Virus record (IMG/VR): IMGVR_UViG_3300044712_000123
DNA length: 64,000 nt
DNA from: a virus
Taxonomy: Duplodnaviria; Heunggongvirae; Uroviricota; Caudoviricetes
Strand: one strand, 5' to 3'
Shown here piece after piece: positions 2,365-38,340 of the stretch (position 1 is the first letter of the stretch; the number at the start of each line of letters is the position of its first letter). Under the pieces are notes generated by a model, which was not told the origin of the DNA, searched no databases, and was given only the letters and a program-made list of their open reading frames with translations. The translations under genes and the position numbers were made by a program.

Positions 2365-3465
2365 ATGAGTTATTTATTTACAAGTGAGTCAGTGTCCGAA
2401 GGACATCCAGACAAAGTAGCTGATGCAATCAGTGACGCCATTCTCGATTTAGTAATGGCAAAAGAAGACAAGTCACTACGCTGTGCATGTGAAACGTTGG
2501 TAACAACTAATATGGTAACAGTTGCAGGAGAATACAAAGGTATCTTGCACAAAGAGGAAGTAGAATCTACTATCCGTAAGACTATTAAAAATATAGGTTA
2601 CGAGCAACAAGGGTTCGACTGGCGCACAGTAAAGATTTACAATGAGTTACATGGTCAGAGTGCAGACATTGCATTAGGTACCGACGACTTTGGTGCAGGA
2701 GATCAGGGCTTGATGTTTGGTTACGCATGTAATGAAACTCAAAACTATATGCCATCAGCGATCTATTGGTCACATCGTATCGTTGAAGAACTAACACGCC
2801 TACGTAAGAATGGTACAATGACTTGCTTGGGCCCTGATGCTAAGAGCCAAGTAACATTTGAATATAATGACGATGGTACACCTAAGCGTATTGCTAAAGT
2901 TGTTTGTTCGACTCAGCACACTGATGACATTGATATCAACTCATTGCGTTTGGCAGTCAAAGAAGTGATTCGTGCTATCTTACCCAGAGAGTACTTAGAT
3001 CATGACACTGAATATTTTATTAACCCTACTGGACGGTTTGTTATTGGTGGTCCTGATGGTGATACTGGTCTTACTGGTCGTAAAATCATCGTTGATACTT
3101 ATGGTGGCTATAGTCCTCACGGCGGGGGAGCCTTCAGTGGCAAAGACCCTACTAAGGTTGATAGAAGTGCTGCCTATATGATGCGCTACATTGCTAAGAA
3201 CATCGTAGCAAGTGGTAAGGCAGATTGGGCAACATGTCAAGTTAGCTATGCAATTGGATTGAAAGACCCTATGAGTTTCTACATTGAAACTGCTGATGCC
3301 AAACAAGGTCGTGATTTGACTAAGTGGGTACAAGACAATGTTGACTTGACACCTAAAGGAATCATCGAGCGTTTTGACTTGTTCAGACCAATCTATAGTA
3401 AAACAACCAACTATGGACACTTCGGCAAAGCTGGTTTGCCCTGGGAAAAAATTGACTTGTTCTAA
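2365..3465 (+). CDS. metK: S-adenosylmethionine synthetase
   Basis: FTSESVSEGHPDK, GAGDQG, GGPDGDTGLTGRKIIVDTYGG, GGGAFSGKDPTKVDRS signatures. Confidence 0.98.
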   Translation: MSYLFTSESVSEGHPDKVADAISDAILDLVMAKEDKSLRCACETLVTTNMVTVAGEYKGILHKEEVESTIRKTIKNIGYEQQGFDWRTVKIYNELHGQSADIALGTDDFGAGDQGLMFGYACNETQNYMPSAIYWSHRIVEELTRLRKNGTMTCLGPDAKSQVTFEYNDDGTPKRIAKVVCSTQHTDDIDINSLRLAVKEVIRAILPREYLDHDTEYFINPTGRFVIGGPDGDTGLTGRKIIVDTYGGYSPHGGGAFSGKDPTKVDRSAAYMMRYIAKNIVASGKADWATCQVSYAIGLKDPMSFYIETADAKQGRDLTKWVQDNVDLTPKGIIERFDLFRPIYSKTTNYGHFGKAGLPWEKIDLF

Positions 3466-7386: not shown

Positions 7387-7423
7387 TGTCGTAATAAAAC
7401 AACAGAAAGAAAATTGACAGTAA

Positions 7424-7588
7424 ATGGAAGATGTGATAGAATACAAAACTTCTTCTGATGACAAGAGTGATTGGTTAGCTAATCACACATTGTCAAAAGA
7501 ACAAGTTGCACAATTGATCCGTAACAAGATTGAACGTGCAAGACTCTATCAGCGCAAGGAGGACGAAAAATTCTTCTTTGATGACTGA
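7424..7588 (+). CDS. Small hypothetical protein (54 aa)
   Basis: Open frame MEDVIEYK...FFFDD. Confidence 0.5.
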   Translation: MEDVIEYKTSSDDKSDWLANHTLSKEQVAQLIRNKIERARLYQRKEDEKFFFDD

Positions 7589-7754
7589 TAGAAAAGTGTT
7601 GAATAAGTGCGTAAAGCCCAGGGAACGAGGCCCTGAAAGAACACTATAATAATCTTTAAACGGGCGGACAGTAGGATGAAGTCTGTGGCGTTAACGCAGA
7701 TTGTAAAATCACTGGGTAGGGTATTGACCCTATCATGTCGTGTAGAAATACACG

Positions 7755-7837
7755 GCATTCTAAAACATACTAAACTCATATGCAGCCTAGTGCATTGTGT
7801 CCGTGGCGTAGCAGGTTATAAGTGTGTTTTAGAATGC
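7755..7837 (+). repeat. Stem-bounded element, copy 1 of CATTCTAAAACA..AGTGTGTTTYAGAAT family
   Basis: Terminal inverted repeat similar to those at 20963 and 21269. Confidence 0.6.
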
Positions 7838-7898
7838 TTACTACAGGTGAACATTACATAAGCACTGTGAATGCTTATGCTGTAGTGACAGTTTTTAT

Positions 7899-9703: not shown

Positions 9704-9774
9704 GTGGCCATGTTGTAATGGTAGCAACCTAGACTGTGACTCTGGTAGTTCGGGTTCGAGCCCCGATGGTCACC
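9704..9774 (+). tRNA. tRNA-His(GTG), no encoded CCA, acceptor extended by a 10-bp flanking stem
   Basis: CTAGA ctGTGac TCTGG; TTTACTTAGG (9693-9702) / CCTAAGTAAA (9775-84). Confidence 0.8.
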
Positions 9775-15486: not shown

Positions 15487-15692
15487 GTAGTGTAGTTTAG
15501 GCTGATGGACGGCAATCTGTTCGCAGTCTGATACTTGACTTCCTGAGACAGTAGCTTTGCCGAGCGAATCACAGGGAAGTTCGATATGGTGGAATTGGCA
15601 AACACAGGTGCTTTTGAAGGCGTCTGAGGTTAAACTCTTGTAGGTTCGAATCCTACTATCGATTTATCAAGCGTCAGCCTAAACTACATTAC
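15487..15692 (+). ncRNA. Long stem-bounded RNA containing a Leu-type tRNA body (15581-15662) with aberrant anticodon loop and no CCA
   Basis: GTAGTGTAGTTTAGGCTGATG / CGTCAGCCTAAACTACATTAC; GGTGGAATTGGCAAACAC; GTAGG ttcgaat CCTAC. Confidence 0.6.
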
Positions 15693-18459: not shown

Positions 18460-18537
18460 GCGCCCTTAGCTCATGCTGGTTAGAGCAGTGGACTCATAAT
18501 CCATTGGTGCTGTGTTCGACTCACAGAGGGCGCACCA
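18460..18537 (+). tRNA. tRNA(CAT): Ile2 or elongator Met
   Basis: GTGGA ctCATaa TCCAT, G1-C72, CCA. Confidence 0.88.
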
Positions 18538-18540
18538 TAA

Positions 18541-18683
18541 ATTAGTGTACTCAAAATTAATTTAGAGTATAATTTGCCAGACTCCGGTCTATCTATTGGT
18601 GCACACATTAGATGGGCTATGATACTATTTTAATTATAGAATCAATAGTATCTCTTTACAGTCTGCCAGCCGAGTACACTAAT
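18541..18683 (+). ncRNA. Stem-bounded cassette
   Basis: ATTAGTGTACTC/GAGTACACTAAT perfect 12-bp inverted repeat; inner CAGACT/AGTCTG and GATACTATT/AATAGTATC. Confidence 0.45.
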
Positions 18684-18692
18684 TTATGGTAG

Positions 18693-18806
18693 TTACAATG
18701 AATGTATGAAAGACAACGCAGATTCCATGTCAGTGAAAAATTTCAAGACTGTGGACACTGTGTACATATCATGCACGAGGATGTAACATGTATTGTCGTT
18801 AGACAT
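18693..18806 (-). CDS. Possible small hypothetical protein (37 aa)
   Basis: MSNDNTCYILVHDMY.. open frame. Confidence 0.3.
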   Translation of the reverse strand: MSNDNTCYILVHDMYTVSTVLKFFTDMESALSFIHSL

Positions 18807-18878
18807 TGACAGATGGATGTGTAATCCACTTTTAGTGATTGCGTCATATGTGTGCATCAAGTATTTATAAATATTCAC

Positions 18879-19673
18879 ATGAGTAAAATTCTGATTACAA
18901 GTGGATGTAGTTTTAGCGTTAATAACCTTAGAATTCCGGCAACATGGTCTACACACCTCGGTAATACGTTGTATCAATTAGATTATCATGCACACCGTAA
19001 CTCTGCTAGATCAAGTCAGGGTAATGGCTTGATAAGCAGAAGTACGATGTATAATGTTATTAGCGCATTGGAAACATACAAGCCCGAAGATATCTTAGTG
19101 GGTGTCATGTGGTCAGGAGCAAGTCGCCATGATTATAGATGCACTGATAGTAAAGACCTGCAGTTTGTTCAAGCTAATATAAACAACGGTTGGATTAAGA
19201 ATCCAAATCAGTTTGTTAAAAATGCTCCTGACAATTGGGTCATGCTTACGGCAGCTTGGGCTGATGGTAGCTACGGTTCCGTAGTCAAAGAAGCTGAACT
19301 GTACTACAGACATTTTTACGATGAGATTGGTAGCTCAATTCAATCAATTGAGCATATACTGCGTTTGCAACTGTTTTTAGAATCAAAGAAAATTCCATAC
19401 TTCTTTACTAACTACAGCGATCAAAACATAGTAAGAGACTATCTAAAGGAAAATATCGAGATAAAATATTTGTACGATCAAATAGATTTTTCAAAGTATC
19501 TTCCAGTTAGTAGTGAATTTAGATGGTGTTACGATAACTCTAAGTTCACACATTTGTGGCCAGAGAATTGGAGAGATCAGATATCTCTTCATCCAAAACC
19601 AGAAATGCACAAAGAATTTGTTGACCAAGTTATAATGCCTTGGTTACAAGAAAAATACGCGGGGTTGGTATAG
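18879..19673 (+). CDS. Hypothetical protein, SGNH-like
   Basis: LITSGCSFS..SQGNGLI..GVMWSG..SLHP; TATAAATA at 18866; stop inside tRNA-Gly. Confidence 0.7.
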   Translation: MSKILITSGCSFSVNNLRIPATWSTHLGNTLYQLDYHAHRNSARSSQGNGLISRSTMYNVISALETYKPEDILVGVMWSGASRHDYRCTDSKDLQFVQANINNGWIKNPNQFVKNAPDNWVMLTAAWADGSYGSVVKEAELYYRHFYDEIGSSIQSIEHILRLQLFLESKKIPYFFTNYSDQNIVRDYLKENIEIKYLYDQIDFSKYLPVSSEFRWCYDNSKFTHLWPENWRDQISLHPKPEMHKEFVDQVIMPWLQEKYAGLV

Positions 19674-19732
19674 TGGCTGTGCTCTAGCCTTCCAAGCTAG
19701 TAAGACGAGTTCGATCCTCGTACCCCGCTCCA
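19659..19732 (+). tRNA. tRNA-Gly(TCC)
   Basis: CTAGC ctTCCaa GCTAG, CCA. Confidence 0.9.
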
Positions 19733-19737
19733 CTTTT

Positions 19738-19847
19738 AGGATGTTTACAGCAAACAATCGTTTAAGGTTCAACTCCTTATTTTGCCACCAAACGCTCGAA
19801 AGGGCATCGGCAGAGTCGCGCAATGGGCGCAATCTACACATCCTGTT
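19738..19847 (+). ncRNA. CAGCAA-module RNA carrying a permuted tRNA with internal ACCA
   Basis: AGGATGT-TTACAGCAA..TAAGG ttcaact CCTTA-TTTTGCC-ACCA..GGCAGAG-TC-GCGC aatgg GCGC..ACATCCT-GTT. Confidence 0.7.
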
Positions 19848-19880
19848 ATATTTTGGTCAACGACTTGAAAATAGTTGTTG

Positions 19881-19950
19881 ACAATAAATCAAAGAACTGA
19901 TACAATACATGTATTGACACTGAGAAATCGGTGATGTTCTTTAAAAATTT
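19881..19950 (+). promoter_or_regulatory. sigma70 promoter + boxB-like hairpin + boxA-like sequence
   Basis: TTGACA-17-TACAAT; CACTGA gaaa TCGGTG; TGTTCTTTAAAAATTT. Confidence 0.65.
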
Positions 19951-19963
19951 AAGCTAAGAATTT

Positions 19964-20085
19964 TCTTAGCATTGTTGAGTATACTAACTTACAGCACAGC
20001 CGAATCTGTGTGTAACTCCTAGTCGTAACTTATTGTGAGAAATAAGGGAGTGTATGTCTCACTAGTGTATTCAACAATGTTAAGA
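19964..20085 (+). ncRNA. Stem-bounded cassette
   Basis: TCTTAGCATTGTTGAGTATACT / AGTGTATTCAACAATGTTAAGA. Confidence 0.5.
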
Positions 20086-20098
20086 TTTTAAAAGATAT

Positions 20099-20963
20099 GG
20101 GGGCTTAGCCTCATTAGAATAAGCATAGTGATATGCCCAAAGCGGTCGTCTCCTACAGACCCGCGCTAGAAATAGTTCATCTAAGCAAGCCTGCTTACAC
20201 CCGTGAGGGTGCGATCACTGATAAGACCGGTGGTTGTAACTGTAAAGCAAGTGTGTTGGAAAGAATGTCTGTTTATGTTCCCGTGAGGGTAAGACAGGCG
20301 GACAGAGAGTAACAGGTGGTGCTGACCTCAACACAAAACCAACTTGTCAACAGGTATAAGAAAAGGTAGTGTATTGATTCGAGGGGTTGCACCCAAGAGT
20401 TCGTATGCAGTTTGAGTGGTTAGTGGATATGTATGGTAACAGGCATATACACCGATCGTGAAAGACGACTGAGTAGTTCGCAAGACAAAAGGTACGTGGC
20501 GTGTTGTATTTTGTAGTCCAAAAGATTATGAAGCAACTGAGACAGCACATCACAGTAGGTTGTTATAGATCATTGGTAGATCAATTCTCTGTTAAAGAAT
20601 AGGCAGCAGGTTCAATTCCCGCTAACAAATAAAAAAGCAAAGTCTGTCTCGGTTGTATGTGAAAAGCATCTAATACTGGAGCCGCAAGGTAATTCAGTCA
20701 GACGTAACTCGCAAGGTGAAATCTGTTTATGCAGGAAGTTTCGTAAGTTGTTAGCGCAACTGAATGGCTCGCAAGGTCAGCGGAGTAGAAAGCGTAGAAT
20801 AGCATACAATGTCAAGTCTAATGCCTGACTTAAAACGGCGATGTTGGTAACAGACTAGGATACTCAGCAATGAGGCTTAGTGGAAATCAGAAGAAAGCAG
20901 TCTCGCAAGGATTGTAATAATGTCTGAGGTGTTACTCGGTAAGGATGTATTCTCAGTCCTCCA
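20099..20963 (+). ncRNA. GOLLD-like giant structured RNA (about 865 nt)
   Basis: ORF-free; many GNRA hairpins; GGGGGCT/AGTCCTCC end pairing; ACTGAGACAG/CTGTCTCGGT long-range pairing; located in a tRNA cluster and carrying an internal tRNA. Confidence 0.65.
20559..20629 (+). tRNA. tRNA-Asn(GTT)-like domain embedded in the giant RNA; no CCA
   Basis: GATC attggta GATC; ATTCT ctGTTaa AGAAT; GCAGG ttcaatt CCCGC; TTGTTA/TAACAA. Confidence 0.7.
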
Positions 20964-21036
20964 CTATTCTAAAGCACATTAAAGTAGCGACTATTGCTGG
21001 AGGCGGTAGCACGTAATTAGTGTGTTTCAGAATAGT
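20963..21036 (+). repeat. Stem-bounded element, copy 2 of the ATTCTAAA..TGTGTTTCAGAAT family
   Basis: ACTATTCTAAAGCACATT / AGTGTGTTTCAGAATAGT. Confidence 0.6.
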
Positions 21037-21268
21037 AAATTACTGGCTCCAAAGGCAAAGTGATACTATACGGTGTGTTCAGCATCGTGAGAGCAAAAGT
21101 TAGATACAAGATTGCAAAGCGAAGTTAATTAACGCAGTTCGGTCGCTACAGAATATCGGGTTACTCCCGACGGTGGGACTGTATTATTAACCAGCAAAGA
21201 ACGATTGGATAGGATTTGATCACCTTGAATGTCGTAAGCATCAAGTTGAAACGCTAACAACTGGACAC

Positions 21269-21335
21269 CATTCTAAAACACATTTCGAGTCCATGTCTCT
21301 TCCGTAATTAAGGAAGGATAGTGTGTTTCAGTATG
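21269..21335 (+). repeat. Stem-bounded element, copy 3 of the same family
   Basis: CATTCTAAAACACATT / AGTGTGTTTCAGTATG. Confidence 0.6.
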
Positions 21336-21418
21336 AGTAATTACATGAACAACTCAGATCACTCGCTTATCCCATAGATAAGAAAGAGGGTCGTAGTTAC
21401 TCGTATAAATAGTTTTAT

Positions 21419-21495
21419 GCACCGGTGATGGAATTGGTATACGTGTTGGTCTTAGAAGCCAAATTTTGTGGGTTCGAGTCCCACCCGGTGCACCA
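21419..21495 (+). tRNA. tRNA-Leu(TAG), short variable loop
   Basis: TTGGT ctTAGaa GCCAA, CCA. Confidence 0.9.
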
Positions 21496-21660
21496 TACTA
21501 TAGTATACTCTTGTCATATTGGGGGACATAGCTTGCCCGTATAGTTAGGGGAATCCGTTCGCTCTAACGAGTGCTATATCTCAGATGTTCGAAAGTCTGG
21601 TTTAAGGTATACTACGAAGTTACAGTGCTTGACACGCATTGGGAGTGTATTATAGTATGG
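21493..21660 (+). ncRNA. Stem-bounded cassette
   Basis: CCATACTATAGTATACTCT / GGAGTGTATTATAGTATGG. Confidence 0.45.
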
Positions 21661-21667
21661 TAAATTT

Positions 21668-21751
21668 GCGACTGTGGTGTAATTGGTAGCCACAGCAGAC
21701 TTAAAATCTGCCGCCTAGTGCGTACCGGTTCGAGTCCGGTCAGTCGCACCA
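21668..21751 (+). tRNA. tRNA-Leu(TAA)
   Basis: GCAGA ctTAAaa TCTGC, variable arm, CCA. Confidence 0.93.
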
Positions 21752-21808
21752 AAGAACTCTCCCTTACATACGGAGTACAATGAGACAAGTAGTATGTAAC
21801 GAATAATT

Positions 21809-21884
21809 GGGGGTGTAGCTCAACTGGGAGAGCGTCTGATTTGCATTCAGAAGGTCGCGGGTTCGATCCCTGTCACCTCCACCA
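21809..21884 (+). tRNA. tRNA-Ala(TGC)
   Basis: TCTGA ttTGCat TCAGA, G3.U70, CCA. Confidence 0.93.
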
Positions 21885-21894
21885 AGTATCATGT

Positions 21895-21968
21895 TGCGGG
21901 CGAGTGTGATGGTAGCACGTTGGGCTCATAACCCAGAGGGCCGGTTCGATTCCGAGGCTACGCAACCA
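21895..21968 (+). tRNA. tRNA-fMet(CAT)-like, irregular acceptor
   Basis: TTGGG ctCATaa CCCAG (3 G-C pairs), CCA. Confidence 0.7.
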
Positions 21969-21975
21969 AATTTAT

Positions 21976-22049
21976 AGCGGGTAGGGCGGTCACCACTTCA
22001 GTCTCATAAGCTCGGAGCATCGGCAGTTCGAATCTGTCACCCGCATCCA
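21976..22049 (+). tRNA. Degenerate tRNA-Met(CAT)-like
   Basis: ctCATaa loop, A1:A72 mismatch, weak D and anticodon stems, T-arm and CCA intact. Confidence 0.5.
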
Positions 22050-22060
22050 AATTGACCTTT

Positions 22061-22179
22061 AGGTTCATTTCAGCAATCAAAATAATCTTTCTGTAAAAAA
22101 GAGGGACTGGGTTCGAATCCCAGCAGTGAGTTGGTCTTCACTGTGGTGTAATGGTAGCACGAAAAAAGTTGAACCTGTT
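22061..22179 (+). ncRNA. CAGCAA-module RNA carrying a complete circularly permuted tRNA-Tyr(GTA)
   Basis: AGGTTCA-TTTCAGCAA..TCTTT ctGTAaa AAAGA..CTGGG ttcgaat CCCAG-CAGTGAG/TTCACTG-TG-GTGT aatggt AGCAC..TGAACCT-GTT. Confidence 0.8.
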
Positions 22180-22197
22180 AACGCAAATAAATACAGC

Positions 22198-22839
22198 ATG
22201 AAGAAATCGGCTGATGATATTTTATTTGCAAGTGTAAATCTTCCAATCTTAGACAAAAAACTAGCCGCTAAAGAAATTTTAGCACTAGGTGATGAAGTGT
22301 CTTATTGGAATGATTATCGATACACAAAGATGATTCCATTAATGACAAAAGGTGGCGCCGGTCAACGAATTGGCGCTGACAATAGTAGACCTGGAGATTT
22401 TGATTGGACATCTTATGCTCCTAATGTCATTGTCGATTGGTTCGAAGAACATGTTTTTCCCTGGCTAGGTGGACGTTATCGTGTTATGGCATTGATAACA
22501 CAGCCCGGAGTAGCAAATCATGAACACATCGATTGTAACCCTGACGAACTAAATACACTTCAACATAAGTTTAGAATTGTATTACAGGGTAAGACAAGTA
22601 CATTGTATTGGTTAACGGACAACGGCAACGTTTATGTACCTGATACAGAGAAAGCATTTATCATGGATGGCGGTTGGCCTCATGGTATGACAAATACAAC
22701 TGACGAGATTAAAGTAACATTGGCATTGGGTGCCCCCTGGGTAGGCAATGAAAGTTACGGTGATGATATCACTATCTTGCAGAGAAGACAAGATTATAGA
22801 ATGCCAGAGAAGATAGATCATCTTTGGCAAAAGAGTTAA
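22198..22839 (+). CDS. Aspartyl/asparaginyl beta-hydroxylase-like 2OG-Fe(II) oxygenase
   Basis: NHEHID..HKFRIVL..MDGGWPHGMTN. Confidence 0.75.
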   Translation: MKKSADDILFASVNLPILDKKLAAKEILALGDEVSYWNDYRYTKMIPLMTKGGAGQRIGADNSRPGDFDWTSYAPNVIVDWFEEHVFPWLGGRYRVMALITQPGVANHEHIDCNPDELNTLQHKFRIVLQGKTSTLYWLTDNGNVYVPDTEKAFIMDGGWPHGMTNTTDEIKVTLALGAPWVGNESYGDDITILQRRQDYRMPEKIDHLWQKS

Positions 22840-22843
22840 TATT

Positions 22844-22921
22844 CGGAGTGTAGCGCAGTCTGGTTAGCGCACCTGCTTTGGGAGCAGGGGGTCCAAGGTT
22901 CGAATCCTTGTACTCCGACCA
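22844..22921 (+). tRNA. tRNA-Pro(TGG)
   Basis: CCTGC ttTGGga GCAGG, CCA. Confidence 0.95.
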
Positions 22922-22926
22922 ATCAT

Positions 22927-23001
22927 GCATCGTTAGTTCAGCGGTAGAACTCCATCCTTACACGGTGGCTGTCGGCGGTTCGATCCCGTCACGATGTACC
23001 A
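22927..23001 (+). tRNA. tRNA-Val(TAC)
   Basis: CCATC ctTACac GGTGG, CCA. Confidence 0.92.
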
Positions 23002-23010
23002 AATAAGACT

Positions 23011-23038
23011 AATAGGTTGTTGTAAGAAACAACCTATT
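23011..23038. terminator. Hairpin closing the main tRNA array
   Basis: AATAGGTTGTT/AACAACCTATT. Confidence 0.5.
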
Positions 23039-23091
23039 GCCACATCCGTCCTGGAAATTTGTTATGATGTTATTTCTAAATAAATATCTAG

Positions 23092-23679
23092 ATGAAATCT
23101 CTTAATATAGAACTACCAGACTTTCACTGTGACCTAACTGAGCAAGACTTATTAGATATGCATGACATTATTCAAGTAGGGAAACTTGCTTGGAGTCCTT
23201 CGGAGAAAAAAGTAGTAGATTACTCCGATGTTCCGGTATTTAGATTATACACGACTTATGATCCAAACGTAACTAGTAATGTAAATCCTGCATTAAATCA
23301 TGCTAGATGGTTCCCCTTACAACCTGCGTTTTATCGAGTTTGTGCAGGAACCGGAAATACAAAACTCATTGATTTATTTGGACAACTAGTGAATGAAGCT
23401 ATCCGACTTTATGATAAGCCGTTTTCGACAGTAAGTTGTATACTATGTGATGAAACCATCAGTAAGCACATTCACTCAGTAGACCCTAGTAAGAATGTAG
23501 TTACTACTACTTTTTATTGGTGTTTGACTGAGAATACACTTGACGCAGATTTTTTTATCGAAGATGAAGTTTATCCTGTGTTTCGTCAGGGAATGTGGGA
23601 ATTCGACCCAGCAACACCACACGGCTTAATCAGTAAAGATAAAAATATGAGATTTTATGTGTTGATTGATAATCTATGA
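23092..23679 (+). CDS. Cupin/2OG-oxygenase-like protein
   Basis: SKHIHS..FDPATPHGL. Confidence 0.55.
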   Translation: MKSLNIELPDFHCDLTEQDLLDMHDIIQVGKLAWSPSEKKVVDYSDVPVFRLYTTYDPNVTSNVNPALNHARWFPLQPAFYRVCAGTGNTKLIDLFGQLVNEAIRLYDKPFSTVSCILCDETISKHIHSVDPSKNVVTTTFYWCLTENTLDADFFIEDEVYPVFRQGMWEFDPATPHGLISKDKNMRFYVLIDNL

Positions 23680-29744: not shown

Positions 29745-31169
29745 ATGCAATTCGCAGAAGCAATCAAAAACCAAGAAGTTCGTACTACTAATGGTATGAA
29801 GGCACGTAAGTCAAGCGCAAACGCTTGTGTAGACTTGTTCTACAACCTAGGTGCAAGCCGAGGTAAAAACGTTATCCCAGCATTCACTGCGGCTTATGTC
29901 GAGAACAGTGATCTGGCACTGCGTATTGCACAGTGGGCACGTGATGCCCGCGGTGGTTCCGGTGAACGCCAAGTGTTCCGAGATATTCTTGTTCACTTGG
30001 AAAAGACTAACCCAGAAGACGCTATGCGTTTGATGGCGAAGATCCCAGAAATCGGTCGTTATGACGACTTGCTAGTGTTTAAGACTCAGCCTGTGAAGGC
30101 TAAGGCATACACTATGCTTGGCGATGCACTTCGTGCCCGTAACGGTCTCGCGGCTAAGTGGACTCCTCGTAAGGGTGAAGTCGCACGTGAAATCCGCGAA
30201 TTCTTCGGAATGACTCCTAAGCAATACCGTAAGAGCCTTGTTGCACTTACTAACGTTGTGGAAACACAAATGTGTGCTAAGGATTGGGATAACATCAACT
30301 TCTCGCATGTTCCTTCAGTGGCACATGCACGTTACAAGAAGGCGTTTGGCCGTAATGGCACAACTTACGCTGAATACGTAACTAAGTTGGTTAAGGGCGA
30401 AGCAGGTGTCAAAATCAACGCTGGTGCAGTTTTCCCTTACGATGTGTTGAAGGGTGCTATCAACCGATACAGCCGTTCAGCTATGTCTAAGACTGAGTTG
30501 GATGCATTGCAAGCCCAATGGGACGCATTGCCTAACTACGTCGGTGACGCTAACGTGTTGCCTATGGTTGACTCGTCAGGTTCGATGACTTGCGCGGCAG
30601 GTGGTTACAACTCTAAGTCAGGCTTGTCTTGCTTGGATGTTGCACTGTCTTTGGGCTTGTACTTCGCTGACAAGAACAAGGGTAAGTTCAAGGATACGTT
30701 CTTGACTTTCTCTAACACACCAAAGTTGGTTAACTTGAAGGGTAACATCAATCAAAAGATTGACCAAATGAACACAGGCGAAGTTGCTAACACCAACTTG
30801 AATGCGGCGTTCAACTTGATCCTCAAGACAGCGTTGGACAACAATGTTCCTCAAGCAGAAATGCCAGAAACATTGGTGATCTTCTCTGACATGCAGTTCG
30901 ACCAAGGCGTTAAGCACGATGACAGCGCAATCGAAATGATTGCACGTAAGTATGAAGCCGCAGGCTACGCGATCCCTAAGGTCGTGTTCTGGAACTTGAA
31001 TGCCGCTTATGGCAACACCCCTGTCAAGTTCGATAAGAGTGGTACCGCTCTTGTCTCTGGTTTCAGCCCAGCTGTTGCAACTTCTGTATTGTCAGGAGAC
31101 TTGGAAGACTTCACACCAGAAGCTATCATGTTGAAGACAGTTATGAAGGATCGTTACGACTTGTCGTAA
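29745..31169 (+). CDS. DUF2828-family TROVE-like/vWA protein (Ro60-like architecture)
   Basis: N-terminal TTNG..VDLF..RDARGGSGERQVF..GRYDDL..AKWTPR helical region; vWA MIDAS VDSSGSM..T..SDMQFD..VFWNL..VSGFS. Confidence 0.8.
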   Translation: MQFAEAIKNQEVRTTNGMKARKSSANACVDLFYNLGASRGKNVIPAFTAAYVENSDLALRIAQWARDARGGSGERQVFRDILVHLEKTNPEDAMRLMAKIPEIGRYDDLLVFKTQPVKAKAYTMLGDALRARNGLAAKWTPRKGEVAREIREFFGMTPKQYRKSLVALTNVVETQMCAKDWDNINFSHVPSVAHARYKKAFGRNGTTYAEYVTKLVKGEAGVKINAGAVFPYDVLKGAINRYSRSAMSKTELDALQAQWDALPNYVGDANVLPMVDSSGSMTCAAGGYNSKSGLSCLDVALSLGLYFADKNKGKFKDTFLTFSNTPKLVNLKGNINQKIDQMNTGEVANTNLNAAFNLILKTALDNNVPQAEMPETLVIFSDMQFDQGVKHDDSAIEMIARKYEAAGYAIPKVVFWNLNAAYGNTPVKFDKSGTALVSGFSPAVATSVLSGDLEDFTPEAIMLKTVMKDRYDLS

Positions 31170-32794: not shown

Positions 32795-33455
32795 TATTGT
32801 AGGTATCATCGGTCCCGGTGGAGAAGGTGGGACGTTCTTAGATTGGACGTTACACTATCTCGCCGGTCAGACCTATATGAGATATATTATTGTAGACAGA
32901 ATCTCAAATAAAATAATAAACTCAGCGGCGCAGTTAATCTCAACTAATCCAATAACTAGTTCTGGCAACGCACATAAACATAAGAAAACACATCCCACTG
33001 AGGCATTAGTTAAACCATGCATAGACTTGTACCGAAAAGTTACTGATTCTAAAATCAAGCTATTGACGATGTACATTGTAGCATCAAGTGAATCATATGC
33101 TAATGGTGAGTCTTATTCAGAATTAGCAAGGCGAATCTGTAGGCAGAATGCCGAAATGCCTATCATTCATTTTTATCATCCTGATAACATGAGTGATAAA
33201 CTTGCACATAGAATTCATCTACATATCCCTGAATTGTCTCAAACTATTACTGAGATTAAAAATAGTGTTCTGGCTTCATGCAATGAACCAGATAAAATAA
33301 TCATTGATCCTAACGTTTATCCTCTAAACATAGAGACAATGTTTTCAGACCTCGATACTGAAATACATAAAATATTTGCTTGGTTAAATTTACCAATAGA
33401 CGAAGCAAGATACACTGCTTGGTTACCTGTCTACCGAGCATGGCAACAAGCCTAA
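32784..33455 (+). CDS. Hypothetical protein, possibly P-loop/sulfotransferase-like
   Basis: GIIGPGGEGGTFLDW. Confidence 0.6.
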   Translation: MSSDIVGIIGPGGEGGTFLDWTLHYLAGQTYMRYIIVDRISNKIINSAAQLISTNPITSSGNAHKHKKTHPTEALVKPCIDLYRKVTDSKIKLLTMYIVASSESYANGESYSELARRICRQNAEMPIIHFYHPDNMSDKLAHRIHLHIPELSQTITEIKNSVLASCNEPDKIIIDPNVYPLNIETMFSDLDTEIHKIFAWLNLPIDEARYTAWLPVYRAWQQA

Positions 33456-33534
33456 ACTTACTACTTTTGTAGTACTTGACTTTAATACCCAAACACTGTA
33501 TAATGTAGAAATACAAAAGAAAGAGTGTATCCAA

Positions 33535-33708
33535 ATGAAACAAGTCGTTTACAAAGGTTCAGTGTTAGCTAAAGGTAGTACTGCACTTGAACTGTGGGAA
33601 AACTGGCAAAAAGAAAAGAAAGATCGGAACGCCGCTCAAAAGAAGCTGGACGTCCATATGAAAGAAGTCGAACAGCGTCACCGAGACTTGCTGGATCGAT
33701 ACAAATAA
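33535..33708 (+). CDS. Small hypothetical protein (57 aa)
   Basis: Downstream of TTGACT-17-TATAAT at 33476. Confidence 0.6.
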   Translation: MKQVVYKGSVLAKGSTALELWENWQKEKKDRNAAQKKLDVHMKEVEQRHRDLLDRYK

Positions 33709-33722
33709 GAAAAGAGAATAAT

Positions 33723-34190
33723 ATGCCTTGGATTGAAAATTGTGCGGCTGATGATATCCCAAAGAGATTTCACCACGAAGCCGGTGAGAATAGTATGCTG
33801 ATTAGCATTACAGACCCAGCAAGTTGGAGACCAACTCCTGCTCACAAGTTCAAAGAGATTCACAATTTTGAATTCTTGGATATTGAAAAAGACGATTTTG
33901 CATTGGACGAGGCAATGCGTTGTAGTCAAGAGCAAGCAAACGAATTAGTCCGATTGTTGCAACATGCAAAGGAAAATCGAATGAACGTTGTGGTTCATTG
34001 CTTTGCAGGTATCTGTCGCAGTGGTGCAGTGTGTGAGGTTGGTGTCATGATGGGTTTTGAAGACACTGGCAGATTTCGCAGTCCTAACTTGCTTGTCAAG
34101 CATCGCATGATGCGCGCCCTCGGCTGGACCTACGATGAGGATGAGAAACCGAATGTCGATGACTGGAGAACTTTTAGGAACGACAATTAA
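33723..34190 (+). CDS. Protein-tyrosine/dual-specificity phosphatase-like protein
   Basis: VVVHCFAGICRSG (CX5R). Confidence 0.85.
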   Translation: MPWIENCAADDIPKRFHHEAGENSMLISITDPASWRPTPAHKFKEIHNFEFLDIEKDDFALDEAMRCSQEQANELVRLLQHAKENRMNVVVHCFAGICRSGAVCEVGVMMGFEDTGRFRSPNLLVKHRMMRALGWTYDEDEKPNVDDWRTFRNDN

Positions 34191-37175: not shown

Positions 37176-37438
37176 ACAAACAAATCAAAGAACTTGCTGA
37201 ACAGGCTGGACTCAGAATTGAGTATCAGATGATTAACCCGCCCAAGCCTTTTCAGATTCTTGGTAGTACTGAACAGTTTGAAAAGTTCGCCGAGTTGATT
37301 ATCAATGACTGTGCTAGTCTATGTGAGATTGAAAGCCGATCATACACTTATTCTTTCACACCAGCAAAGGCACGATTAGCAGAATCTACTGCAAAGAATT
37401 GCGGTACAATAATCAAACGACATTTTGGAGTCGAATAA
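37172..37438 (+). CDS. Small paralogous protein (IKELA.QA..EKFAELI..HFGVE family)
   Basis: Similar to 38963 and 51334. Confidence 0.75.
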   Translation: MNKQIKELAEQAGLRIEYQMINPPKPFQILGSTEQFEKFAELIINDCASLCEIESRSYTYSFTPAKARLAESTAKNCGTIIKRHFGVE

Positions 37439-38340
37439 TGTTTAAAGAAGAATTGAAAAAGTACGTAGAGACTTCGGGCCTAGTGAACATGAAAGAGGCT
37501 GGCGCCGGCATCTTCATCTTGAAGTATAAGAAGAAGGTGTTCTACGATAACCTGTGGAACGAGTACATCGCTGAATGCCGTGGATCAGTGATTGATAAGG
37601 ATTTCAACCTAGTTGCTTATCCCTTCACAAAAATCTACAACTATGGCATTGAGAAAGAAGCACCCGTGCTTTCTGACGACACTCAAGTAACTGCTTTCCG
37701 TAAGGTTAATGGTTTCATGGTTGCAGTTTCGTATCACAACGGTGACGTTTTTGTATCTACTACAGGTTCTACTTTGGGTGACTATGTTGGCTATGCTAAG
37801 GATATGATGCTAAAGCACATGCCCTGGAGTGACTGGCAAATGGCACTAGCAGCCGATGACTGCCGAGACATGACCTTCATGTTTGAGTGCGTACATCCCA
37901 ACGATCCTCATATCGTGGTTGAAAAGCCAGGTATGTACATCTTGGGTTATCGTGAAAAGACTTGGGGGTCTAAGGTAGGTCATGATGTTTTCATGCTACA
38001 AGAACTTGGTCATGTGTTCAACTGTTTTGTACCAGAAAGCGTAACAACTAACCTGGCACAACTAAAGATCATGGTCAAGGAATGTAAGCACGAAGGCTTT
38101 GTGTTCTATACACAGGACGGAGTTAGCTCTAAGATCAAGAGTCCATACTACTTGACTTCAAAGTGGGTAGCACGTAACCCTCGTACAGACAAGCTAGTTG
38201 ACCTGAACAAGGACATCAAGCAAAATCTGGACGAAGAATACTACCCACTAGTGGATGCAATTCGTGCTAACATCGTTGAATACACTAGTATGGACGAGCA
38301 AGCTCGCCTAGCATGGGTTCGTAATTTTGTGAGTGCGTGA
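37438..38340 (+). CDS. T4 Rnl1-like RNA ligase
   Basis: ECRG....PFTKIYN; motif I KVNG; TFMFE; EGFV; KIKS..Y. Confidence 0.85.
   Translation: MFKEELKKYVETSGLVNMKEAGAGIFILKYKKKVFYDNLWNEYIAECRGSVIDKDFNLVAYPFTKIYNYGIEKEAPVLSDDTQVTAFRKVNGFMVAVSYHNGDVFVSTTGSTLGDYVGYAKDMMLKHMPWSDWQMALAADDCRDMTFMFECVHPNDPHIVVEKPGMYILGYREKTWGSKVGHDVFMLQELGHVFNCFVPESVTTNLAQLKIMVKECKHEGFVFYTQDGVSSKIKSPYYLTSKWVARNPRTDKLVDLNKDIKQNLDEEYYPLVDAIRANIVEYTSMDEQARLAWVRNFVSA

What the first reader, a model, noticed from the sequence alone, without database searches (positions are those of the whole stretch)
20099..20963. GOLLD-like giant RNA with an embedded tRNA-Asn domain
Seen: about 865 nt without ORFs, paired ends, many GNRA hairpins, and a CCA-less tRNA-Asn(GUU) cloverleaf at 20559-20629. 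Established: GOLLD RNAs are roughly 800-nt phage RNAs near tRNA genes, sometimes contain a tRNA, and their function is unknown. The family call is from memory of the layout, not a search.
Basis: partly seen in the sequence, partly recalled or inferred. Interest (0 to 1): 0.7.

Follow-up and report, generated by a model that had tools for sequence, protein, structure and literature searches.

The report
Phage GOLLD RNA with built-in tRNA
This 865-base stretch of an uncultured giant phage is a full-length GOLLD RNA, a known giant non-coding RNA that builds hollow RNA cages, and the "tRNA-Asn" inside it is a conserved tRNA-shaped domain of that RNA, not an ordinary tRNA gene.

Summary
Rfam's GOLLD model (RF02032) matches window 20496-20959 end to end at 215.7 bits (threshold 150, E 1e-59). 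Homology with relatives sets the whole RNA at about 20099-20963.

It lies in a 49-tRNA array of an uncultured jumbo phage. In 84 relatives, 126 covarying base pairs span both halves.

The cloverleaf at 20559-20630 sits in the known variable linker. All 112 readable linkers (of 116 pattern-matching stretches) of this GOLLD subfamily carry a homologous copy.

- It keeps the full tRNA fold, including covarying tertiary pairs.
- It lacks CCA, whereas 44 of 47 tRNAs in the window encode it.
- The outer end of its acceptor stem is weak.
- Its anticodon drifts among orthologs (GUU 39, UUU 20, CUU 5 and others), with at least 29 switches on the tree.

So "Asn" is only nominal.

Contigs from four freshwater metatranscriptomes cover just this RNA at very high depth. 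One contig bridges both tRNA junctions.

"Paired ends" was not supported.

GOLLD cages and linker tRNAs are already published (PMC12286853, PMC12990946, PMC6582537). This scan has already noted GOLLD RNAs, several with a tRNA in the linker, on other DNA: 15 findings in at least 15 genomes.

Verdict: a new, unannotated member of a known kind. Function remains unknown.

The parts
19878..19906 (+). Near-consensus sigma-70-type promoter (TTGACA, 17 nt, TACAAT with upstream TG). It is the likely start of the transcript that carries GOLLD.
   Evidence: 11 of 12 matches. Conserved in L003 and L009. Similar promoters lie within 350 nt upstream in 47 of 79 distinct relatives. Its use is inferred, not shown.
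19935..19947 (+). boxA-like element TGTTCTTTAAAAA in the leader. From my own knowledge it resembles the rrn antitermination boxA, TGCTCTTTAACAA.
   Evidence: Read. The same 13-mer or a near copy lies about 50 nt after the promoter in many relatives. Function is inferred.
20099..20963 (+). Full-length GOLLD RNA, about 865 nt.
   Evidence: Homology limits, alignment A1, Rfam hit, covarying pairs from 20117 to 20961, and RNA-library contigs confined to bins 20087-21022.
20099..20493 (+). 5' domain, subfamily-specific. At least 13 helices are supported by covariation, including a long-range helix 20191-20197 / 20357-20365 and the isolated pair 20388-20482.
   Evidence: A profile of this domain also finds Sinorhizobium phage Phosso (E 8e-17), but not the lake/marine GOLLD group nor L004, L008 and DSS3_MAL1.
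20496..20959 (+). Conserved 3' domain, matched by Rfam RF02032 over positions 1-416.
   Evidence: 215.7 bits, gathering score 150, E 1.2e-59.
20537..20543 (+). 5' strand (CUGAGAC) of a helix that closes the linker. It pairs with 20645-20651.
   Evidence: Covariation of 20542 with 20647 (MI 1.47; APC 1.21; 100% paired) and of 20540 with 20649. The pairing is not drawn in the Rfam consensus.
20559..20630 (+). tRNA-shaped domain in the linker (J13/15). Anticodon loop CUGUUAA (GUU), G1.A72 mismatch, U73, no CCA.
   Evidence: Cloverleaf covariation in 83 distinct orthologs. Tertiary pairs and tRNA elbow nucleotides are conserved.
20631..20651 (+). Nearly invariant linker motif AAAAAAGCAAAGUCUG, followed by GUCUCGG (20645-20651, overlapping the motif's last two bases), the 3' strand of the linker-closing helix.
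20654..20659 (+). 5' strand of the long-range pseudoknot of the 3' domain. It pairs with 20803-20808.
   Evidence: Rfam consensus brackets. Covariation at five of the six pairs.
20803..20808 (+). 3' strand of that pseudoknot.
20747..20760 (+). Hairpin with the conserved loop UUAGCG. It is a candidate equivalent of the self-kissing loop L21a.
   Evidence: Stem covaries. Loops are UUAGCG in 64, CCCGCA in 9 and CUCGCA in 5 sequences, all keeping a self-complementary GC. The mapping to env-38 L21a is my inference.
20766..20778 (+). Neighbouring hairpin with loop UCGCAAG, a candidate equivalent of L21b.
   Evidence: The mapping is inferred.
20939..20961 (+). Terminal hairpin of the RNA, with the conserved GUAUUCUCAG.
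   Evidence: RNA contigs of three runs end at 20962-20967, which is a weak hint of the 3' end.

Best explanation
Window 20099-20963 (+) encodes a full-length GOLLD RNA of an uncultured jumbo phage.

**How it most likely works**
- It is transcribed with the tRNA and small-RNA array, probably from the strong promoter at 19878-19906.
- It accumulates as an abundant stable RNA.
- It folds into a subfamily-specific 5' domain (20099-20493) and the conserved 3' domain (20496-20961).
- By homology with the solved GOLLD env-38, copies of it assemble without protein into a closed homo-oligomeric cage. The linker between the first 3'-domain hairpin and the rest of that domain points into the cavity.
- In this subfamily the linker is a complete L-shaped tRNA fold, held at its base by a covarying helix (20537-20543 with 20645-20651).

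**My reading of the tRNA-shaped piece.** It is a tethered tRNA mimic. It stays part of the GOLLD RNA and is read by shape, through the tRNA elbow and the anticodon-loop geometry, by a partner still unknown. It is not an ordinary tRNA-Asn that is cut out, given CCA, charged and used in decoding.

**Shown here:** family identity, extent, secondary and tRNA tertiary structure by covariation, lack of CCA, anticodon drift, and presence of RNA-library contigs that span the junctions.

**Inferred:** cage assembly, inward orientation, non-release, and the mimic role.
For: **Identity.** RF02032 matches over its full length at 215.7 bits against a threshold of 150. The Rfam pseudoknot 20654-59 / 20803-08 covaries.

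**Extent.** Homology with L001, L006, L009, L012 and L020 starts at 20092-20098.

**Structure.** 126 mutually best covarying pairs in 84 sequences.

**Context.** 49 tRNAs in the window. Relatives lie on contigs of 300-420 kb.

**tRNA fold is conserved**
- D, anticodon and T stems are 93-99% paired, with changes on both sides at every pair.
- The 15-48 pair covaries (A-U 51, U-A 9, G-C 2). So does 13-46 (C-G 61, U-A 20).
- U8, A14, G18G19, T54-A58 and U33 are kept.

**Not an ordinary tRNA gene**
- No CCA, whereas 44 of 47 window tRNAs encode it. 82 of 83 orthologs also lack it.
- The outer three acceptor pairs are only 68.7% paired, with essentially no compensatory change: 1 both-side change in 249 cells.
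- In the window the domain has G1.A72 and U73.
- At least 29 anticodon changes occur on a tree built without the tRNA columns. About half of the pairs that are 80-90% identical differ in anticodon.
- L002 and L017 differ by one base, UGG against UGA. The UGA copy has no long variable arm.
- The domain is no closer to the phage's own tRNA-Asn genes than to its other tRNAs.

**RNA evidence**
- Contigs of four metatranscriptomes from four studies cover only bins 20087-21022, at summed word depths up to 3e5. None covers the ORF at 18852-19673.
- X15 contig 20479-20696 bridges both tRNA junctions with one mismatch.

**Literature**
- Cage structure, with the linker inside: PMC12286853.
- tRNA-Phe in J13/15: PMC12990946.
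- A pseudo-tRNA inside a mycobacterial GOLLD gave no separate signal on a Northern blot: PMC6582537.
Against: Cage assembly was not tested for this sequence. Its 5' domain has no detectable sequence similarity to that of the lake/marine GOLLD group, and oligomer number varies among GOLLDs (PMC12990946).

Contigs cannot show RNA ends or the share of molecules that are cut. A fraction could therefore still be processed at the tRNA.

RNA-library runs were picked because they hold this RNA, and their depths sum over related GOLLDs (cautions printed).

Some features would also suit a real tRNA: the canonical anticodon loop (U33 invariant; A37 and A38 usual) and U35U36 in 65 of 83 copies. Hosts have CCA-adding enzymes (my own knowledge).
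Confidence: 0.6

Rival explanations
1. The embedded cloverleaf is a working tRNA gene (Asn here, Lys or others in relatives). RNase P and a 3' endonuclease release it, the host adds CCA, and it decodes. GOLLD merely hosts it, or stores it until the cage opens (the 'inhibited storage' idea of PMC12990946).
For: The cloverleaf is complete, with covarying stems and tertiary pairs, and with U33 and A37. It scores 54.5 bits on RF00005. GUU, UUU and CUU make up 64 of 83 anticodons, so some constraint on U35U36 is possible. Storage has been proposed in print.
Against: No CCA, although 44 of 47 tRNAs of this phage encode it. In the window the domain has G1.A72 and U73. The outer acceptor pairs are 68.7% paired, with an invariant 5' strand. 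Anticodon identity switches at least 29 times without matching changes elsewhere, giving for example 'Ser' UGA without a long arm, A34 anticodons, and loops of 8 and 9 nt. RNA contigs span both junctions. No separate pseudo-tRNA signal was seen in a mycobacterial GOLLD (PMC6582537). The phage already has two standard tRNA-Asn genes.
Confidence: 0.15
2. The cage is a multivalent decoy. It presents ten or more tethered tRNA look-alikes that bind or absorb a host tRNA-targeting factor, such as an anticodon nuclease of an abortive-infection system. This would protect the phage's translation alongside its own tRNA array.
For: Fold and anticodon-loop geometry are conserved while decoding identity is not, as expected for a shape-read bait. 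63 of 83 copies carry GUU, UUU or UGU, the three anticodons of the E. coli tRNAs cut by PARIS AriB (PMC12409363 abstract). The RNA is very abundant in RNA libraries. Phage tRNAs are known counter-defences (PMC11464382, title and abstract listed).
Against: There is no direct evidence. The anticodon spectrum can be explained by descent from a GUU ancestor through single-base steps. Most copies, the window's included, have A or G at position 39, a change that abolished AriB cleavage of E. coli tRNA-Lys in vitro. If the linker faces the closed cavity, access for a protein is unclear.
Confidence: 0.1
3. The region is a decayed tRNA-array spacer with a pseudo-tRNA and no function of its own.
For: The acceptor end is degenerate and CCA is missing.
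Against: 126 covarying pairs; a full-length family hit; conservation in 116 pattern-matching stretches, the window included; very high RNA depth.
Confidence: 0.01

Closest known systems
GOLLD RNA (Rfam RF02032). Solved example: env-38, a 14-mer D7 nanocage (Kretsch et al., Nature 2025, PMC12286853).
   Same: Full-length match to the 3'-domain model, including its pseudoknot. Two-domain layout of about 850 nt. Phage origin inside a tRNA cluster. Variable linker after the first 3'-domain hairpin.
   Different: The 5' domain has no detectable sequence similarity to the lake/marine group. The linker is about 83 nt and folds as a tRNA, whereas env-38 has a disordered 42-nt loop. Oligomer state is untested here.
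Mycobacterial / Mycolicibacterium GOLLD in tRNA arrays, with a tRNA-Phe or pseudo-tRNA in J13/15 (PMC6582537, PMC12990946).
   Same: A tRNA-shaped insert in the same linker. Sits in a large tRNA array. In M. aubagnense no separate expression of the insert was detected, which fits my reading.
   Different: Different host range (jumbo phages of freshwater and soil). Different nominal anticodon. Whether the inserts share ancestry was not tested.
GOLLD copies in cultured phages: Sinorhizobium phage Phosso (PV764938.1) and Bacteriophage DSS3_MAL1 (MN602268.1).
   Same: RF02032 hits at 186.6 and 160.5 bits. Both have a CCA-less tRNA-like domain in the linker, followed by the A-rich GCAAAGACUG motif (GCAAAAGACUG in DSS3_MAL1). 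Phosso also shares the 5' domain.
   Different: About 68% identical to the window over the matched part of the 3' domain. Anticodon loop UCU. In Phosso the RNA is unannotated. In DSS3_MAL1 only the insert is annotated, as tRNA-Arg.
ROOL RNA, an 8-mer nanocage.
   Same: A large phage RNA near tRNA islands that forms a cage with an internal disordered linker (PMC12286853).
   Different: Unrelated sequence and fold. No ROOL hit in the window at gathering score.
tRNA-like modules of Y RNAs (YrlA).
   Same: tRNA mimicry inside a larger non-coding RNA. Earlier notes of this scan report several Y-like RNAs and a Ro60-like gene in this same window.
   Different: From my own knowledge, YrlA modules lack an anticodon arm and dock to Ro60/Rsr. 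Here the cloverleaf is complete and sits in a GOLLD scaffold.

Membership tests
GOLLD RNA (RF02032) | Covariance-model score at or above the curated gathering score, over the whole model. | tested here: met
   215.7 bits against 150, model positions 1-416 of 416, E 1.2e-59.
GOLLD RNA (RF02032) | Long-range pseudoknot of the 3' domain. | tested here: met
   20654-20659 pairs with 20803-20808. Five of the six pairs are mutually best covarying and 99-100% paired in 84 sequences.
GOLLD RNA (RF02032) | About 800 nt or more, with a less conserved, structured 5' domain ahead of the conserved 3' domain. | tested here: met
   865 nt. The 5' domain 20099-20493 has at least 13 covariation-supported helices. 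It is not alignable by sequence to the other GOLLD group.
GOLLD RNA (RF02032) | Phage or prophage context, often in or next to tRNA clusters. | tested here: met
   49 tRNAs in the window. Relatives lie on IMG/VR contigs up to 424 kb.
GOLLD RNA (RF02032) | Accumulates as a discrete, abundant RNA. | tested here: met
   Contigs of four metatranscriptomes from four studies cover only 20087-21022 at high depth, with none over the upstream ORF. These are contigs, so ends and levels are not measured.
GOLLD RNA (RF02032) | Self-complementary kissing loops (L21a and L21b) that join the two half-shells. | tested here: inconclusive
   Two adjacent hairpins, 20747-60 and 20766-78, have conserved loops that keep a GC dinucleotide. 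The mapping to env-38 residues is my inference, and no GC/CG switch was seen.
GOLLD RNA (RF02032) | Protein-free homo-oligomeric cage. | not testable with these tools
   Needs cryo-EM, mass photometry or light scattering on the transcript.
Ordinary tRNA-Asn gene | Cloverleaf with tRNA tertiary interactions. | tested here: met
Ordinary tRNA-Asn gene | 3' CCA encoded, as in this phage's other tRNAs. | tested here: not met
   Followed by AAAAAA. 44 of 47 other tRNAs encode CCA. 82 of 83 orthologs lack it.
Ordinary tRNA-Asn gene | Intact 7-bp acceptor stem maintained by compensatory change. | tested here: not met
   G1.A72 in the window. Pairs 1-3 with 70-72 are 68.7% paired, with 1 both-side change in 249 cells.
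Ordinary tRNA-Asn gene | Anticodon identity stable among orthologs. | tested here: not met
   12 different anticodons plus odd loop sizes. At least 29 changes on the tree.
Ordinary tRNA-Asn gene | Released as a separate, chargeable RNA of about 75 nt. | not testable with these tools
   Contigs cannot show ends. One RNA contig bridges both junctions.
ROOL RNA | Rfam covariance-model hit at gathering score. | tested here: not met
   No ROOL match in the window.

The most novel reading that the evidence does not exclude
In this jumbo-phage subfamily the GOLLD cage may be a multivalent display of tethered tRNA decoys. On this reading the linker domain has been kept for its tRNA shape and anticodon-loop geometry, mostly GUU, UUU or UGU, the anticodons of the tRNAs cut by PARIS-type nucleases. 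It has been freed from decoding constraints because its job is to bind or absorb a host tRNA-targeting defence factor, or another tRNA-binding protein. That would give the GOLLD cage its first function.
Probability: 0.1. Interest if true: 0.85.

Novelty: new member of a known kind. Interest (0 to 1): 0.33.

Why it matters
GOLLD is one of the largest bacterial and phage non-coding RNAs. Its cage structure is solved, but its function is not known.

This locus adds an unannotated member. Through its 115 IMG/VR relatives it also defines a large jumbo-phage subfamily in which a tRNA fold is a fixed part of the linker.

I did not find the following pattern stated in the papers I read, and it narrows what the domain can be doing:
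- The tRNA fold and its tertiary pairs are conserved.
- There is no CCA.
- The acceptor end is frayed.
- The anticodon drifts freely.

Two cultured phages, Phosso on Sinorhizobium meliloti and DSS3_MAL1, carry the same arrangement. The question is therefore testable at the bench.

For genome annotation, such inserts should not be counted as tRNA genes. DSS3_MAL1 lists its insert as tRNA-Arg.

Tried and rejected
- **Whole-genome search.** None is held for this window.
- **Close relatives in INPHARED.** Only two distant GOLLD hits and one tRNA hit.
- **Other Rfam families in 18500-23100 at E up to 1.** Only tRNAs and chance-level hits.
- **'Paired ends'.** Not supported.
- **A covarying partner for the U/A polymorphism at 20643, and for the invariant linker motif.** This would have tested the L20-J13/15 bridge. 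No partner stood out, and the motif is too conserved to covary.
- **5' domain profile against the lake/marine GOLLD group, L004, L008 and DSS3_MAL1.** No hit. I cannot say whether the 5' architectures are alike.
- **Recent duplication of the phage's own tRNA-Asn.** Rejected. The best matches are other tRNAs at 65-69% identity.
- **AriB target site UAAUCA in the domain.** Absent from the window copy (UAAAGA). By eye it is present in only a few relatives, such as L068 and L087.
- **Joints listed (for example 20510 to 20631).** Their flanks are under 30 nt, in a metagenome. I did not use them.
- **Parts of the window without RNA-contig cover.** These are not evidence of silence.
- **Papers not held.** PMC7549688 and PMC4140389.

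Full report
**Observation**

Rfam release 15 places GOLLD (RF02032) at window 20496-20959 on the + strand. The score is 215.7 bits against a gathering score of 150, E 1.2e-59, over model positions 1-416 of 416. Inside that hit, RF00005 (54.5 bits) and ARAGORN find a tRNA at 20559-20630 with anticodon GUU. In the alignment to the model it falls in the unpaired variable stretch after the first hairpin.

The window holds 49 tRNA genes, nearly all between 7.9 and 23 kb. No whole genome is held for it, and INPHARED has no close relative. The best DNA holders are rhizosphere and freshwater metagenomes.

The largest ORFs within 20099-20963 are 59 aa (+) and 68 aa (-). Eight GNRA tetraloops have closing stems of at least 3 bp, against 2.1 +/- 1.5 in shuffles. 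The MFE z-score is -2.96.

**Extent**

A pattern built from conserved GOLLD motifs found 21 IMG/VR loci, and Rfam calls GOLLD in every one. BLAST of the window against them shows similarity starting at 20092-20098 (L001, L006, L009, L012, L020) and ending at 20955-20983.

The Rfam model covers only the 3' half. The 5' half, 20099-20493, is conserved within this group (alignment A1).

**The subfamily and its structure**

A second pattern, specific to the first 3'-domain hairpin of this group, found 115 IMG/VR stretches. Many lie on contigs of 300-424 kb.

I aligned 84 distinct full-length copies and computed APC-corrected mutual information. This gave 126 mutually best pairs that are also at least 80% Watson-Crick or G-U, running from 20117 to 20961.
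- They define at least 13 helices in the 5' domain.
- They recover the helices of the Rfam 3' domain, including its pseudoknot 20654-59 / 20803-08.
- They add a helix not drawn by Rfam, 20537-43 with 20645-51, which closes the linker. The pair 20542-20647 has MI 1.47.

No covariation links the two termini. "Paired ends" rests only on a single-sequence MFE.

A profile of the 5' domain finds Sinorhizobium phage Phosso (E 8e-17). It does not find the lake/marine GOLLD group. This fits the published statement that GOLLD 5' regions are less conserved than the 3' region (PMC12286853).

**The tRNA-shaped domain**

Of the 116 pattern-matching stretches, the window included, all 112 with a readable linker carry a homologous tRNA-like element at the same place. 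There are 83 distinct sequences (alignment A2).

*The fold is kept.* On the cloverleaf that I wrote over A2:
- The D, anticodon and T stems are 98.5, 98.8 and 93.0% paired, and every pair shows changes on both sides.
- The four inner acceptor pairs are 90.9% paired, also with compensatory changes.
- The whole structure beats all 500 shuffles and all slid controls (91.6% paired against 35-48%).
- Tertiary features hold. 15-48 covaries (A-U 51, U-A 9, G-C 2). 13-46 covaries (C-G 61, U-A 20).
- U8 is kept in 80 of 83, A14 in 81, G18G19 in 75, T54-A58 in 79, U55C56 in 82. U33 is invariant.

So this is a genuine L-shaped tRNA fold.

*It is not an ordinary tRNA gene.*
- 44 of the 47 tRNAs in the window are followed by CCA. 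This one is followed by AAAAAA, and 82 of 83 orthologs also lack CCA.
- The outer three acceptor pairs are only 68.7% paired. Their 5' strand (GUU, within the conserved GGUU) is nearly invariant, and compensatory change is essentially absent: 1 both-side change in 249 cells.
- The window copy has G1.A72 and U73.
- The anticodon is GUU in 39, UUU in 20, CUU in 5, UCU in 4 and UGU in 4. There are seven other triplets (UUC and AUG twice each, five others once), and two loops of 8-9 nt.
- On a tree built without the tRNA columns, the anticodon changes at least 29 times.
- 46-49% of sequence pairs that are 80-90% identical differ in anticodon.
- L002 and L017 differ by one base in the whole linker, UGG against UGA. 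That gives a nominal tRNA-Ser without a long arm.
- The window copy is no closer to the phage's two standard tRNA-Asn genes than to its other tRNAs.

The same holds in two cultured phages. Phosso has an unannotated GOLLD at about PV764938.1 33185-34001. In DSS3_MAL1 the insert is annotated as tRNA-Arg. In DSS3_MAL1 the free-standing tRNAs have CCA, and in both phages the insert does not.

**Expression**

Six freshwater metatranscriptomic runs from six studies hold at least half of the sampled 31-mers of this RNA. I laid the contigs of four of them on window 18800-22300.
- Cover is confined to bins 20087-21022, with summed word depths up to 218, 4,080, 309,000 and 39,000.
- The ORF at 18852-19673 has none, and the flanking tRNAs have little.
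- X15 contig 20479-20696 (one mismatch) bridges both tRNA junctions.
- Contigs of three runs end at 20962-20967.

Three caveats are printed by the tool. These are contigs. The runs were chosen because they hold this RNA. Depths add up related GOLLDs.

With those limits, the result supports an abundant RNA of the predicted extent in which the tRNA domain is at least partly retained.

A near-consensus promoter lies at 19878-19906, followed by a boxA-like TGTTCTTTAAAAA. Similar promoters precede 47 of 79 distinct relatives.

**Mechanism**

Kretsch et al. (PMC12286853) showed that GOLLD env-38 forms a protein-free 14-mer cage. Its 5' domains make the caps and its 3' domains the rings. [quoted passage not shown]

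A 2026 review (PMC12990946) notes a tRNA-Phe in J13/15 of a Mycolicibacterium GOLLD and suggests inhibited storage.

Behra et al. (PMC6582537) found a pseudo-tRNA inside the M. aubagnense GOLLD and detected no separate expression of it.

Putting these together with the results above, I rank the readings as follows.
- **Best reading, about 0.6.** This RNA assembles into a cage that carries one tethered tRNA-shaped domain per subunit. The domain is read by shape and is not used as a decoder.
- **Working, excised tRNA, about 0.15.**
- **Decoy for a tRNA-targeting host factor, about 0.1.** It is attractive because 63 of 83 copies carry the three anticodons of the tRNAs cut by PARIS AriB. It is weakened because most copies have A or G at position 39, which abolished AriB cleavage in vitro, and because the spectrum can be plain descent from a GUU ancestor.

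**Comparison and novelty**

Every defining GOLLD feature that I could test is met. The cage itself cannot be tested here.

GOLLD, its cage and linker tRNAs are all published. This scan has already noted GOLLD RNAs, several with a tRNA in the linker, on other DNA (15 findings in at least 15 genomes).

The locus is therefore a new, unannotated member of a known kind.

What I did not find in the papers I read is the subfamily-wide picture: a fixed, homologous tRNA fold with covarying tertiary pairs, no CCA, a frayed acceptor end and a freely drifting anticodon. That picture is the part worth passing on, together with two cultured phage systems in which it can be tested.

Noticed in passing
window 19964-20090: Between the promoter and GOLLD lies an element of about 125 nt closed by a long inverted repeat (CATTGTTGAGTATAC... 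/ ...GTGTATTCAACAATG). It looks like a separate small RNA cassette on the same transcript.
   Followed up: no
window 20963-21036, with a repeat at 21269-21335: Straight after GOLLD comes a stem-bounded element that starts ATTCTAAAGCACA. Conservation among the 84 GOLLD relatives continues to about 20977, so this element often follows GOLLD. It could be a processing or termination signal.
   Followed up: partly
window 21023-21373: In one metatranscriptome (X18), contigs also cover the non-coding stretch downstream of GOLLD, at depths of 15-510. The neighbouring small-RNA cassettes may therefore be expressed too.
   Followed up: no
window 9704-9774 and 15580-15664: Besides the GOLLD insert, only two tRNA-model hits lack an encoded CCA. 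One is tRNA-His, followed by CCT. The other is an 85-nt element that ARAGORN reads with a four-base anticodon, UUGA.
   Followed up: no
window 37399-38340; 29745-31169; 2365-3465: An Rnl1-type RNA ligase (PF09511), a DUF2828/DUF7788 protein that earlier notes of this scan call Ro60-like, and an S-adenosylmethionine synthetase. Together they suggest a phage heavily invested in RNA repair and RNA-protein particles.
   Followed up: partly
L128 (PV764938.1, about 33185-34001) and L129 (MN602268.1, about 7420-7883): Two deposited phage genomes carry GOLLD that is not annotated as such. In DSS3_MAL1 the linker domain is annotated as tRNA-Arg, and a permuted alpha-type tmRNA gene follows about 60 nt after GOLLD.
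   Followed up: partly
L012 12292-12769: A relative's tRNA array holds ARAGORN calls with 2- and 4-base anticodons and a CUA ('Pyl', amber suppressor-like) tRNA.
   Followed up: no
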